DNA from: Enterobacteria phage phi80
Sequence record: NC_021190.1
DNA: 46,150 bases
Strand: one strand, 5' to 3'
The stretch's first letter is position 1. The number at the start of each line of letters is the position of its first letter. The position numbers were made by a program. Positions 33,001-36,000 of this stretch are shown piece by piece.

Positions 33001-36000
33001 TGTTGCCCGTTCTCACGCCGTTCTCGCTCTCGCGCGGGGATACTCTCTCACCGACCGGATCGCACCCGGTGATACAGCACGTTTACGTGTAGGGGTCTTA
33101 ACAGGTCATTGACGCTGTAAATCTGCATGTTGTTAAAAAGCAGGCGACTTGCTGTCCGCCGCTGGCTAACTTCGCTCAGCTGTCGATGTTTCGTTTCGAT
33201 GGAGTAATTAAACATCATGTGGATTTGTAGGTCAACACCTTGTGGATTTATTTTGTTGATTTAATCGTTTACTGTTGATTTTTATGTTGATTTATTTTTT
33301 GGTGGCATAAGTGATATGCTGAAAAAAACATCAAAAAGGAGTGGGTAATGGACTTGGATGAAGAAAGAGTGAACATGATGGTTCACGCCATGGGGCGGGC
33401 GGTCATGGAGTTGTCACTGGCAGATTTACCTATGACCCAGCAAAACATCATCGACAAGCTGGAACGGTACCGGAAGGAAACGGGAAACGTGATAGGTAAG
33501 GGTGTGAACAGGGATGCAGCTGAGATAGTCAGGAAGGGTAGTAAAGCTGTGAAGTAGGCACAAAAAACCCGGCGCGGTGGCCGGTTGTTAAAGCTCAATA
33601 TCAACTATGAAAAGTTTACTAATAGCCCCTTTTCTAACTGCTGCTTTGGCAGTTACTTTTACCGCTGACTCATGACTTAGACCCGTTGACAGAAAACGAC
33701 TAAGTGAAATGAGATACGGGTTGTCTGCCTTTGAAGCAGATGGATCGCTTATTTGTGCTGAGATGCGCTTATCTGAATCATCACCTTCTATAATGACTTT
33801 AGCGGTCATTCGGTGAGCGTCGAATTCAGTAAGGAAGATTCGATACTCCCTTAAGCCAAGAACTTCGTCGTCGTCCAACTGGTCTATTACTGCTTTATCT
33901 TGCTCATCAATTACAGCAGGCTTGAAACCATTCCCCGGTGTGACGCTTATCTTATTACAGGTGGTACCGATGGGGGAAACTGCCTGTCTAACTGATGGGC
34001 GTAACTCACTAGCCATCTTGTCAATCACTGAGATTAGACCTGAGATGGTATCTTTATCTTTATTTCCGAGGGCCTCAATTGCCTTCTCAAGTGCTTCTTT
34101 TAGGTATTTCATTTCCTCTTTCTTCTGCGAGTTTTTAGCGAAGATATAAGGCACTAATGCGCCAAGTATAGCCCCCGCAGACCCTGAGAACAATTGAGAC
34201 TGACTGATAAAATTCATGATAGTATCAAGAGAAAAACAATTGGCCCTAGCTTCGGTAGCGTAAATTTTAACCTCTTGAGTTGAGGTGCTTCGCGAGTACT
34301 TTTGGGTTAATGCGAAGGTTCCAGCTGTAGCTAATATCTTCGAAAATCCCTTTAGCGATTCACCGAGCGAAGAAAGTTCAATCTCATGCTTTTCAGCATC
34401 CAAACCGTCATATCTAAGTGAAAAATTAACATCGTGTAAGCCAGTGTTTTCCATCAACAGTCCTTATATGCTTTCACCAAAACGTCTCATCAGGCCACCA
34501 TAAGCACGATCGCAACAACCGAGAGCAAAGTAACCACGCCTACTATCAGATATTCTCTCATCACCCAAACGTCTCTTCAGGCCACTAAAATTATCGGCGA
34601 TATCGCAATACCGAGTACCAGAACACAAAACCGATTATCTCGACATCTGCCTCATCGGCCTCTTCGTCGTCATAATCACGATTAATGCTTCTGATTAGAA
34701 TTTTTCCGCCTGGTTTGCGATAAAGTTGCTTGATGCGCTTCAGATCTCCCTGGTTGATGGCGTAGAGTTCGCCGTCAATAACTCGCTTATTACCAGTATC
34801 AACAGCTACAGTTGCACCATCAGGAATGACTGGCTCCATACTGTCTCCTGATGCAGGAAAACACAGGACACCAGAACCATCACTATTGGCTCCAACTCGA
34901 CGGAGCGTTGCTTTTGAAAAGCGCAATTTAAAACCGTTGTGATCCTCATCGTGTACTCGTCCATCACCACACGCAAACTCGATATCCTTCAGAAACGGTA
35001 CTTCCACCTCATCGTCAGGTAGGGGGGTATTTTTGTCCCAAGCGTCGACAGTTCCCCACTCAGACTCTGGCGGGATGTTGCTCTCCAGATCCTTCTTTGG
35101 AGAACCCTCTCCATTTAATAACCAGTCAAGAGAATAACCGAATTTTTCAGATATTTGTTGCGCCGCCTCACGACTTAACGCGTCTCTTTTTATCCAGTTG
35201 TTGACGGTCTGTGGGCTAGTCGACAAAGCCTCAGCCAAATCCCGCTGCTTCAAGCCTTCCCTTGCCAGTAAAAATTTAATTCTTTCAGAAATGCTGCTCA
35301 TAAAACCCTCCGCTCCATGCATGGTAAACAACATGTGGATTTTTTCCATCACCATAATGTTGATTTAATCCACGCCATGAATTAACATGGTGTTGATTAC
35401 ACATGAGCGGAGCAAAACATGATCAACAAAAAATCCAACGCCAGCACCCCGCTTGAGAAAGCCATTAATGCAGTGGGCGGCTCTCAAAAGGTGCTTGCTG
35501 AAAAGGTCGGCGTAACGCCTCAGGCCATCAATATGCTTAAAAAGCGAGGTGGCAGCCTTCCAGTAACAAAAATGCGTAAATACGAAGAAGTAACCGGACT
35601 TCCTCGCGAAGTTCTATATCCAGGTATCTTTGCCGCCTAACCGGCGGCTCTAACCACGAAATGGAAAGCAATGCATTCACTTGCGTATCAACACAATACC
35701 GGAATACACCCGGGAGCGATGATAAACCGCGCTCAACCTAAGGCGGAGCCAGGTCACGACAAAATCCGCGATGCGGTCCGTGCATGGTCGTCGTCCCTGG
35801 ACAATCAGGACGTAGTGTCAGCGCTGATCATCAACGAATACCGGGAGCAGGGCGGTACCGCCATCAGCTTCCCAGAAGACATCAGCAGGGCGCGCCAGAA
35901 ACTTTTTCGCTTTCTGGATAACCGCTTCGACTCCGATCAGTACCGCGAGAACGTTAGAGAACTGACCCCGGCAATCATGGCTGTTCTTCCTGTTGAGTTT

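What the first reader, a model, noticed from the sequence alone, without database searches (positions are those of the whole stretch)
33348..34454. AT-rich 288-aa gene in the rex position, convergent with a small operator-proximal gene
The slot immediately downstream of cI, co-transcribed from the repressor promoter in lysogens, is where lambda carries rexAB and where other lambdoid phages carry exclusion or abortive-infection genes. Here it holds a single 288-aa ORF of clearly lower GC than cI, with no motif I recognise, ending at a shared hairpin with a convergent 69-aa gene whose promoter lies in the OL repeats. That layout suggests a lysogen-expressed defence gene with a repressor-controlled partner or antagonist.
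Basis: partly seen in the sequence, partly recalled or inferred. Interest (0 to 1): 0.8.

Follow-up and report, generated by a model that had tools for sequence, protein, structure and literature searches.

The report
Phi80 repressor-linked candidate defence gene
The window is phage phi80, and the 288-aa gene just downstream of its repressor is an uncharacterised but widespread prophage cargo gene sitting in a swap-slot that related phages fill with known or candidate anti-phage genes, while the small convergent gene is a conserved backbone gene, not its partner.

Summary
The window is phage phi80 (Lula). A 288-aa gene (33588-34454, minus strand; "gene 40" of the 1988 phi80 record) lies 136 nt downstream of cI. 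It ends at a hairpin terminator shared with a convergent 69-aa gene (33348-33557).

Both genes are under strong purifying selection. Gene 40 is Pfam DUF7946+DUF7947: a large family of uniform two-domain proteins with no characterised member. It has a conserved hydrophobic helix and a C-terminal OB-fold.

Homologues sit directly after S24 repressors in very different prophages. Some lie next to SIR2- or HIRAN-domain genes.

In 78 viral contigs that carry the 69-aa gene, the slot between it and cI holds more than 15 alternative cargoes. These include a BstA-like gene, HipA-like/DUF3037 (PDC-M63), PDC-M24, PDC-M66 and toxin genes. Only 5 contigs carry gene 40. The defence-cargo reading is therefore supported by position. 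The "partner/antagonist" reading is not.

No phenotype is known. Lambda-type phages plate on phi80 lysogens. T4 grows on DH10B, which carries cI, gene 40 and the 69-aa gene at 100% identity.

Function is inferred, not shown. My guess is a lysogen-expressed, single-protein exclusion or abortive-infection factor.

The parts
33588..34454 (-). Gene 40: 288-aa protein, DUF7946+DUF7947, cargo gene in the slot downstream of cI. The coordinates include the stop codon.
   Evidence: ORF list. Pfam E 3.8e-62 and 1.2e-20. 100% identical in DH10B and DH5alpha, where RefSeq annotates 288 aa. dN/dS about 0.03.
33882..34424 (-). N-terminal DUF7946 domain (aa 11-191): mixed alpha/beta with the conserved RYDGLDAxxH motif.
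   Evidence: Pfam. AF2 model, mean pLDDT 81.8. Conserved G17, H23, S33, G36, P161, G163 over 109 representatives. No convincing structural match.
34137..34193 (-). Conserved hydrophobic helix (aa 88-106, [19 protein letters not shown]), followed by [10 protein letters not shown]. Candidate membrane segment.
   Evidence: Kyte-Doolittle 19-residue mean of 1.67. The same position gives the top window in 31 of 32 family members, with values 1.2-2.2. Modelled as helix 87-108.
33597..33854 (-). C-terminal DUF7947 domain (aa 201-286): OB-fold-like barrel with conserved D237, P238, N245, Y247, K270.
33569..33584 (.). Shared hairpin between the convergent genes. Intrinsic terminator for the cI/gene-40 transcript; weak on the other strand.
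   Evidence: Terminator scan: 5 G-C pairs, then GTTTTTTGTG on the minus strand. Sequence.
33348..33557 (+). 69-aa gene (phrog_3975): three-helix protein, a conserved backbone gene beside pL.
   Evidence: ORF. PHROG E 7e-35. 490 cluster hits. Present in HK639 (87%) and HK225 gp41 (46%). AF2 gives three helices, pLDDT 82. dN/dS about 0.1.
33312..33320 (+). Candidate extended -10 (TGaTATGCT) of the 69-aa gene's promoter. The AAGGAG ribosome-binding site is at 33336-33341.
   Evidence: The block CATnAGTGnTATGCT..AAAAACA is conserved in phi80, HK225, L007 and HK639, although HK639 has different operators. Read from the sequence. Not found by the strict -35/-10 scan.
33201..33292 (.). OL region. Operator dyads at 33209-33223 and 33232-33246, plus TGTTGATTT repeats. 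pL read by eye on the minus strand (TTGACC 33230-33235, 17 nt, TTTAAT 33207-33212).
   Evidence: X13065 annotation 'O-L region'. Operator pattern: 12 matches against 0.55 expected, all strong ones in OL and OR. Repeats. pL is my own reading.
34474..34503 (-). Fossil 3' end of a lambda-type cI gene (reads WPDETFW*), just upstream of gene 40.
   Evidence: Direct repeat D2. The same motif ends or follows the repressor gene before gene-40 homologues in other loci.
34561..34590 (-). Second fossil cI 3' end (reads WPEETFG*), directly after the phi80 cI stop codon.
   Evidence: Direct repeat D2, 87% identical to the first copy. Alignment.
34591..35355 (-). cI repressor (HTH + S24 peptidase). Annotated as 236 aa from 35301 in public records. 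Presumed to be promoter-proximal in one operon with gene 40.
   Evidence: Pfam Peptidase_S24 1e-19 and Phage_CI_repr 2.5e-10. X13065 and DH10B annotation.

Best explanation
Gene 40 is the cargo (moron) gene that phi80 carries in a hypervariable slot of the immunity region. The slot lies between the repressor gene cI and a conserved small gene next to pL.

It is most likely transcribed with cI from the maintenance promoter in lysogens and terminated at the hairpin at 33569-33584.

Its product is a two-domain protein of a large, uncharacterised prophage family (DUF7946+DUF7947). I think it most likely protects the lysogen against other phages as a single-protein exclusion or abortive-infection factor.

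My guess at the mechanism is that the C-terminal OB-fold domain recognises a phage-made ligand (single-stranded nucleic acid or a protein). This would switch the N-terminal domain so that its conserved hydrophobic helix acts on the inner membrane. The outcome would resemble lambda Rex, but in one polypeptide.

Shown here: gene structure, family membership, fold of the C-terminal domain, genomic position across prophages, and the nature of the slot.

Inferred: co-transcription with cI, the defence function, the ligand, and the membrane action.

The 69-aa gene is a separate backbone gene. It is probably expressed from a promoter beside OL and is not part of a system with gene 40.
For: Position:
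- Same strand as cI, 136-nt gap with no terminator-like or promoter-like site on the minus strand, and a strong terminator right after the gene.

Family:
- 97 clusters at 90% identity.
- 641 clusters at 50% identity with E<=1e-3, almost all 270-300 aa with both domains.

Context of homologues:
- 23 of 28 upstream ORFs scanned are S24 repressors. The count fits every locus except L010, L021 and L022.
- A Vitreoscilla prophage has cro, cI, the homologue, then a SIR2_2 gene that matches PADLOC PDC-S25 at 2e-142.
- Three distant loci have cI, the homologue, then a HIRAN gene.
- Fossil cI 3' ends travel with the gene, as expected for cassette exchange at the end of cI.

The slot is a defence and toxin hotspot:
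- Among 53 orf69-bearing contigs with a recognisable cI, there are more than 15 cargo layouts.
- These include a BstA-like gene (L066, cI 97% identical to phi80's), PDC-M63A/B = HipA-like + DUF3037 (L052, cI 99%), PDC-M24, PDC-M66, and YafO, HicA and SocA domains.

Protein features:
- Weak homology of the N-terminal 128 aa to PADLOC candidate PDC-S42, E 1.1e-5.
- OB fold.
- Hydrophobic helix conserved in character, not in sequence.
- Low G+C, consistent with acquired cargo.
Against: - No experiment on this gene or any family member was found.
- Lambda, lambda i21 and lambda i434 plate normally on phi80 lysogens (PMC2885432).
- HK106 infects a phi80 delta-tai lysogen normally (PMC11364771).
- Wild-type T4 is propagated and plaque-assayed on DH10B (PMC4471564). 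DH10B carries cI, gene 40 and the 69-aa gene at 100% identity.
- So no target phage is known.
- No catalytic motif and no known effector domain were found.
- The hydrophobic helix is only borderline for a membrane segment, and it could be buried in an oligomer.
- One homologue sits in an ordinary chromosomal context and two sit after a portal gene. The link to cI is therefore strong but not absolute.
- PDC-S42 is itself only a prediction.
Confidence: 0.5

Rival explanations
1. Gene 40 and the 69-aa gene form a two-part system. The 69-aa protein would be made when the repressor is lost, and would be the antagonist or self-immunity factor of gene 40. This would be analogous to Tai/Ati elsewhere in phi80.
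For: - Convergent layout with a shared hairpin.
- The plus-strand terminator is weak, so read-through antisense to gene 40 is conceivable.
- Phi80 does use a defence/anti-defence pair at another locus (PMC11364771).
- Small convergent ORFs that may be remote relatives of the 69-aa gene follow gene-40 homologues in L009, L012, L013, L015, L016 and L028. Evidence: hmmsearch E 0.08-1.3, and hhalign probabilities of 12-73% in register.
Against: - Only 5 of 78 orf69-bearing viral contigs carry gene 40, and all five are phi80-identical.
- Of 30 gene-40 loci, only those 5 have a clear orf69.
- HK639 and HK225 keep orf69 next to pL with unrelated cargo.
- At least a dozen gene-40 loci have no small convergent ORF at all.
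- The promoter block of orf69 is conserved independently of cargo and of immunity type.
Confidence: 0.06
2. Gene 40 is a superinfection-exclusion protein. It would be anchored in the inner membrane of the lysogen and block DNA entry or an early step of incoming phages, without killing the cell. Comparable proteins are P22 SieA, T4 Imm and HK97 gp15.
For: - Conserved hydrophobic helix followed by a lysine-rich stretch.
- Location in the lysogen-expressed operon.
- One source labelled a homologue 'membrane-anchored protein' (P0082).
Against: - There is only one borderline hydrophobic segment and no signal peptide.
- A conserved cytoplasmic-type OB fold makes up a third of the protein.
- Neighbours in other prophages are intracellular-type defence genes, SIR2 and HIRAN.
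- No excluded phage is known.
Confidence: 0.12
3. Gene 40 has a non-defence role for the prophage or its host. Examples would be tuning lysogeny or induction, or a lysogenic-conversion function. Its place in the slot would reflect only that the slot tolerates cargo.
For: - No phage-resistance phenotype can be assigned to it.
- There is no known defence domain.
- The slot also carries toxin-antitoxin-type genes and many unknowns.
- Phi80 lysogens have unusual spontaneous-release behaviour of unknown cause (PMC2885432).
Against: - The cargoes of the same slot that can be identified are defence or toxin genes.
- The gene keeps its position after cI across phyla-level distances. It pairs with SIR2 or HIRAN genes.
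- A sister family was flagged as a defence candidate.
Confidence: 0.2
4. Gene 40 is the unidentified determinant of the T4 exclusion and the ten-fold P1 interference reported for phi80 (Lula) lysogens.
For: - Rotman et al. [quoted passage not shown]
- No gene was assigned there.
- Gene 40 is the obvious lysogen-expressed candidate, by analogy with rex.
Against: - DH10B carries cI, gene 40 and orf69 at 100% identity, and wild-type T4 is grown and plaque-assayed on it (PMC4471564).
- The phi80 remnant in DH10B lacks everything from within the major capsid gene through the tail region. A gene there is therefore an equally good or better candidate.
Confidence: 0.08

Closest known systems
Lambda rexA-rexB (Rex exclusion system)
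   Same: Same genomic address and logic. It lies immediately downstream of cI on the same strand, ends at the immunity-region terminator before OL, and so is presumably made in lysogens. My proposed outcome (sensor plus membrane action) is modelled on Rex.
   Different: One gene instead of two. No sequence match to any Rex or other named family in Pfam or PADLOC. No T4 or other exclusion phenotype is known. The membrane action is a guess from one hydrophobic helix.
BstA (Salmonella phage BTP1 and relatives), a prophage abortive-infection protein encoded downstream of the repressor
   Same: A single lysogen-side gene in the repressor-adjacent slot. A BstA-like gene occupies the very same orf69-cI slot in a contig whose cI is 97% identical to phi80's (L066).
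   Different: Gene 40 does not match the BstA model, which did detect the L066 protein. It has no KilA-N or Bro-N domain. No self-immunity element has been identified.
PADLOC candidate PDC-S42 (predicted single-gene defence candidate, untested)
   Same: Similar length (profile of 302 positions). Detectable homology of the N-terminal ~128 residues, E 1.1e-5. PHROGs 3243, 33593 and 13337 and NCBIfam LAPAL_fam look like further sister families sharing this N-terminal region.
   Different: The match covers less than half of the profile, and the C-terminal part does not align. PDC-S42 has no published validation that I could find.
TaiEcA/AtiEcA of phi80 (tail-assembly inhibition and its antidote)
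   Same: Same phage.
   Different: Different locus. The paper gives orf63 near Q and the late operon. By position and size I place it at about 44365-44979, minus strand. It is unrelated in sequence to gene 40. Tai/Ati pairing was shown by genetics, whereas gene 40 and orf69 do not co-occur.
HK022 nun (exclusion gene in the rex position)
   Same: By my own knowledge, nun occupies the cI-downstream slot of HK022 and excludes lambda. It is another precedent for exclusion genes at this address.
   Different: Nun is a small RNA-binding transcription terminator. No resemblance was tested or is expected. Lambda plates normally on phi80 lysogens.

Membership tests
Pfam DUF7946/DUF7947 two-domain family | N-terminal DUF7946 domain above the gathering score | tested here: met
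   E 3.8e-62, 210 bits against a cut-off of 27, aa 11-191 covering profile 1-183 of 183.
Pfam DUF7946/DUF7947 two-domain family | C-terminal DUF7947 domain above the gathering score | tested here: met
   E 1.2e-20, 73.8 bits against a cut-off of 27, aa 201-286.
Pfam DUF7946/DUF7947 two-domain family | Uniform architecture of about 270-300 aa with both domains | tested here: met
   Nearly all of the best 150 of 641 representative clusters are 270-300 aa and match end to end. All full-length hits carry both Pfam domains.
Lambda RexAB | Sequence homology to RexA or RexB | tested here: not met
   No Rex family among Pfam hits at E<=0.1. That Pfam holds RexA and RexB models is my own knowledge. No PADLOC hit other than PDC-S42.
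Lambda RexAB | Two genes (sensor plus membrane channel) | tested here: not met
   A single ORF fills the slot between cI and the terminator.
Lambda RexAB | Located downstream of cI in the repressor operon, ending at the immunity terminator | tested here: met
   Same strand, 136-nt gap, terminator at 33569-33584. Co-transcription itself is inferred.
Lambda RexAB | Abortive infection with loss of membrane potential on superinfection | not testable with these tools
   Needs infection experiments. T4 grows on DH10B, which carries the gene.
BstA | Match to the BstA profile, with a KilA-N/Bro-N type N-terminal domain | tested here: not met
   No BstA hit for gene 40 and no KilA-N or Bro-N hit. As a positive control, the L066 slot protein matches BstA at 1.6e-20.
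SieB and named Abi families in Pfam/PADLOC | Profile match to any such family | tested here: not met
   None at E<=0.1 in Pfam, PADLOC or NCBIfam.
PADLOC PDC-S42 (candidate) | Full-length match to the PDC-S42 profile | tested here: inconclusive
   E 1.1e-5, 23 bits, covering only profile positions 4-130 of 302. This indicates a sister family rather than membership.
Defence/anti-defence or toxin/antitoxin pair with the 69-aa gene | Conserved co-occurrence of the two genes | tested here: not met
   5 of 78 orf69 contigs carry gene 40. 5 of 30 gene-40 loci carry a clear orf69. HK639 and HK225 have orf69 with other cargo.
Defence/anti-defence or toxin/antitoxin pair with the 69-aa gene | Physical or genetic interaction of the two products | not testable with these tools
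   Needs two-hybrid, pull-down or deletion genetics.
OB-fold proteins (fold class, C-terminal domain) | Five-stranded closed barrel superposable on known OB folds | tested here: met
Integral or membrane-inserting protein | A hydrophobic segment long enough to span the membrane | tested here: inconclusive
   One 19-residue window with a Kyte-Doolittle mean of 1.67 (the usual threshold is about 1.6). It is conserved in position and character across the family, with values 1.2-2.2. No dedicated topology predictor was available.

The most novel reading that the evidence does not exclude
Gene 40 founds a new, widespread family of single-polypeptide, Rex-like abortive-infection proteins. In this reading an OB-fold sensor is fused to a latent membrane-inserting helix, and the gene rides directly behind prophage repressors from Enterobacterales to beta- and alpha-proteobacteria.

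The gene is intact, next to an intact cI, in DH5alpha, DH10B, TOP10 and other phi80dlacZ cloning strains. The standard hosts used for phage work and for defence-system screens would therefore carry an unrecognised active defence gene.
Probability: 0.25. Interest if true: 0.7.

Novelty: new member of a known kind. Interest (0 to 1): 0.5.

Why it matters
If gene 40 is a defence protein, three things follow:
- It adds a large, uniform and wholly uncharacterised family to the prophage defence repertoire: 641 clusters at 50% identity.
- It gives that family a tractable model in a classical phage.
- It means that common cloning strains carry the gene. 77 of 5,426 complete E. coli genomes hold the region, mostly phi80dlacZ laboratory strains.

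The analysis also defines a usable discovery handle. The interval between a conserved 69-aa gene and cI in phi80-like phages is a compact cargo slot with more than 15 alternative contents. Several of these are known or predicted defence systems.

If gene 40 is not a defence gene, it is still the only unexplained product of the phi80 immunity operon.

Tried and rejected
- **Named families.** Pfam, PADLOC, PHROGs and NCBIfam scans for Rex, BstA, SieB and Abi families found nothing beyond DUF7946/DUF7947 and a weak PDC-S42 hit.
- **RNA element in the cI-gene 40 spacer.** The repeat contains CUGAUGAG, which looks hammerhead-like. I rejected this: there was no Rfam hit and the fold is no better than shuffles, z +1.28. 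The repeats turned out to be fossil cI 3' ends.
- **Operator-like 14-mer inside gene 40** (34424-34437, repeat D10). It is not recovered by the operator pattern at up to 1 mismatch, so I treat it as chance.
- **Tai/Ati as the identity of the finding.** Rejected: different locus and unrelated sequence.
- **HepS.** Irrelevant, as it is a HEPN protein.
- **Literature.** Searches for DUF7946, DUF7947, PF25678, PF25679, PDC-S42, phrog_5147 and WP_000432054 returned nothing. The phi80 genome paper (Rotman 2012, PMC3510586) is not held in the library.
- **Catalytic site.** R14, D16, D19, H23 and C73 are invariant among close homologues. Apart from H23 (83%), these residues do not reach 80% conservation across 109 representatives, so I dropped the idea.
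Full report
**Identity of the window.** The region 33200-35700 is 99.6% identical to the 1988 GenBank record of the phage phi80 early region (X13065). It is 100% identical to the phi80dlacZ prophage remnants of DH5alpha, DH10B, TOP10 and other cloning strains. The X13065 annotation maps N to 32494-32790 (-) and the O-L region to about 33201-33292. It maps "gene 40A/40B" onto the ORF of the finding, cI to 34591-35301/35355 (-) and gene 30 (cro) to 35419-35640. In the old record gene 40 is cut to 209 aa by a frameshift relative to all modern sequences. 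The modern sequences give 288 aa.

**The observation.** It is correct.
- The 288-aa ORF (ATG 34454, stop at 33588) follows cI after 136 nt on the same strand.
- A 69-aa ORF (33348-33557) converges on it.
- Between them lies a G+C hairpin (33569-33584). It has a T-run on the minus strand only, so it is a good terminator for the leftward cI/gene-40 transcript and a poor one for the rightward transcript.
- G+C is 42.1% for gene 40, 46.5% for cI and 52.1% for the window.
- Both ORFs are under strong purifying selection: dN/dS about 0.03 and 0.10.
- Full operator dyads lie at 33209-33223 and 33232-33246 in OL, and three lie in OR.
- TGTTGATTT repeats continue to 33292.
- The best promoter candidate for the 69-aa gene is an extended -10, TGaTATGCT, at 33312-33320, with the last repeat at the -35 position. 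This block and the A-rich leader are conserved in HK225, in an IMG/VR relative, and in HK639, whose operators are unrelated. A promoter beside OL, not inside it, is therefore likely. Repressor control is plausible but unproven.

**What gene 40 encodes.**
- The protein matches Pfam DUF7946 (aa 11-191, E 3.8e-62) and DUF7947 (aa 201-286, E 1.2e-20). It also matches PHROG 5147, of unknown function.
- It matches PADLOC candidate PDC-S42 weakly, over its first ~128 residues only, at E 1.1e-5.
- Rex, BstA, SieB and named Abi families do not match.
- The family is large and uniform. There are 97 clusters at 90% identity, from Escherichia, Klebsiella, Serratia, Morganella, Proteus and Vitreoscilla. 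There are 641 clusters at 50% identity with E<=1e-3, nearly all 270-300 aa with both domains.
- An AlphaFold model (pLDDT 81.8) shows an alpha/beta N-terminal domain with a four-helix stretch, and a C-terminal barrel.
- Across 109 representatives at 18-37% identity, the conserved residues are G17, H23, S33, G36, P161, G163, D237, P238, N245, Y247 and K270. This does not look like a catalytic set. It fits a binding surface on the OB domain.
- A hydrophobic helix (aa 88-106) is followed by a lysine-rich stretch. It is conserved in position and character but not in sequence.

**Where the family lives.** Thirty IMG/VR loci encode a relative.
- Twenty-three of the 28 upstream same-strand ORFs scanned, including phi80's own cI, are S24 repressors. 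The count fits every locus except L010, L021 and L022.
- This holds even at 28-33% identity, in high-G+C prophages. There the gene is followed at a 9-13 nt gap by a HIRAN-domain gene.
- In a Vitreoscilla prophage the order is cro, cI, the homologue, then a SIR2_2 gene that matches PADLOC PDC-S25 at 2e-142.
- Exceptions exist. Two loci are behind a portal gene, one is in a plain chromosomal context, and one is in an element with a D5 primase.
- The spacer between phi80 cI and gene 40 contains two copies of a 30-nt repeat. On the coding strand these read WPEETFG* and WPDETFW*. In other loci the same motif is the true end of the repressor gene, or lies just before the gene-40 homologue. From my own knowledge, lambda CI ends in QWPEETFG. 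These are scars of cassette exchange by recombination at the 3' end of cI. They are not an RNA element.

**The 69-aa gene is not a partner.**
- It has 490 cluster hits and is PHROG 3975. It is predicted to be a three-helix protein.
- It sits next to pL in HK639 (87% identity) and in HK225 (gp41, 46%). These phages carry three and four unrelated genes, respectively, between it and cI.
- Of 78 viral contigs that carry it with enough flank, only 5 carry gene 40, and all 5 are phi80-identical.
- Conversely, only those 5 of 30 gene-40 loci carry a clear homologue.
- Small convergent ORFs that may be remote relatives follow gene-40 homologues in six more lambdoid loci. This is what a backbone gene next to pL would give.

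**The slot is a cargo hotspot.** Between the 69-aa gene and cI, the 53 contigs with a recognisable cI show more than 15 layouts, spanning 500 to 1,900 nt. Contents include:
- a BstA-like gene (L066, with cI 97% identical to phi80's);
- HipA-like kinase + DUF3037 = PDC-M63A/B (L052, with cI 99% identical);
- PDC-M24 and PDC-M66;
- YafO and HicA toxin domains and SocA antitoxin domains;
- many unknowns.

Gene 40 is thus one allele of a defence/toxin cargo locus in homoimmune phages.

**Phenotypes in the literature.**
- Phi80 (Lula) lysogens plate lambda, lambda i21 and lambda i434 normally. They do not plate T4, and they lower P1 yield ten-fold. No gene was assigned (PMC2885432).
- Exclusion of HK106, HK544 and HK578 by phi80 lysogens depends on tai, which is at a different locus (PMC11364771).
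- DH10B keeps phi80 from int up to a truncated major capsid gene, including cI, gene 40 and the 69-aa gene at 100% identity. Wild-type T4 is nevertheless propagated and plaque-assayed on DH10B (PMC4471564).
- Gene 40 alone is therefore unlikely to explain the T4 phenotype, and no target phage is known.

**Verdict.** The anatomy is confirmed. The defence reading rests on position and neighbours, with no functional data. The partner reading is contradicted by distribution. The mechanism I favour is an OB-fold sensor coupled to a membrane-active helix, giving a Rex-like outcome in one protein. It is a hypothesis built on two structural features. This is an ordinary kind of locus (rex-slot cargo) holding an uncharacterised and widespread family. 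It is of moderate interest, raised by its presence in standard laboratory strains.

Noticed in passing
window 34474-34503 and 34561-34590: A 30-nt direct repeat in the cI-gene 40 spacer. On the minus strand the copies read WPDETFW* and WPEETFG*. These are fossil 3' ends of a lambda-type cI gene. The same motif precedes gene-40 homologues in other prophages, which suggests cassette exchange by recombination at the end of cI.
   Followed up: yes
L042-L121 (interval between the orf69 homologue and cI); e.g. L052:4334-5739, L066:4228-4986, L069:4327-5581, L062:1498-3005: The interval between the conserved 69-aa gene and cI is a compact hypervariable cargo slot with more than 15 layouts. Contents include a BstA-like gene, HipA-like+DUF3037 (PDC-M63), PDC-M24, PDC-M66, YafO/HicA/SocA domains and many unknown genes.
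   Followed up: partly
window 33348-33557 and 33312-33320: The 69-aa three-helix protein is a widespread backbone gene of unknown function, divergent from pL: 203 confirmed viral stretches and 490 protein clusters. It has a conserved extended -10 that is independent of immunity type. It has no lambda counterpart that I know of.
   Followed up: partly
L029:6820-7221, L030:6804-7199, L031:6801-7208: In the three most divergent prophage loci, a HIRAN-domain gene follows the gene-40 homologue on the same strand with a 9-13 nt gap. This suggests a two-gene operon there and a link to DNA ends or single-stranded DNA.
   Followed up: partly
L035:7661-9274 and L020:7655-9265: A 537-aa SIR2_2 protein (PADLOC PDC-S25, E 2e-142; ThsA-like SIR2) lies about 800 nt downstream of the gene-40 homologue, in the repressor-adjacent slot of a Vitreoscilla prophage.
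   Followed up: partly
window 44365-44979 (-) and 45352-46080 (+): The 204-aa minus-strand ORF after the Rha gene fits the published TaiEcA (orf63) by position and size. The neighbouring 242-aa ORF has a weak Phage_Tail_Tip match (aa 119-151, E 5.7e-5). That would suit an anti-Tai decoy, but I did not establish which ORF is orf64.
   Followed up: partly
L001 (X13065) 1761-2390 versus window 33588-34454: The 1988 phi80 record splits gene 40 into '40A' (209 aa) and '40B' (95 aa) because of a frameshift relative to all modern sequences. UniRef still propagates the name 'Protein 40A' to homologues (P0010).
   Followed up: yes
whole prophage; literature PMC2885432 versus PMC4471564: Phi80 lysogens are reported not to plate T4 and to depress P1. 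DH10B grows T4, although its phi80 remnant retains int through a truncated major capsid gene. The T4-exclusion determinant therefore probably lies in the part missing from the remnant (from within the major capsid gene through the tail region), or it needs an intact prophage. It appears to be unassigned.
   Followed up: partly
window 36219-36298 (-): There is a weak Rfam ctRNA_pGA1-like hit (20 bits, E 0.88) with a strong terminator hairpin. It lies where X13065 annotates 'M3 RNA', between cII and the replication gene. It is probably the oop-like antisense RNA and not a ctRNA.
   Followed up: no
window 35671-36213: The cII-position gene matches both PHROG 'CII-like transcriptional activator' (E 1e-59) and Pfam YdaT_toxin (E 2.7e-28). 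Cro matches YdaS_toxin at E 5.5e-7, just below the gathering score. This shows that the YdaS/YdaT 'toxin' names describe cro/cII-type regulators.
   Followed up: no
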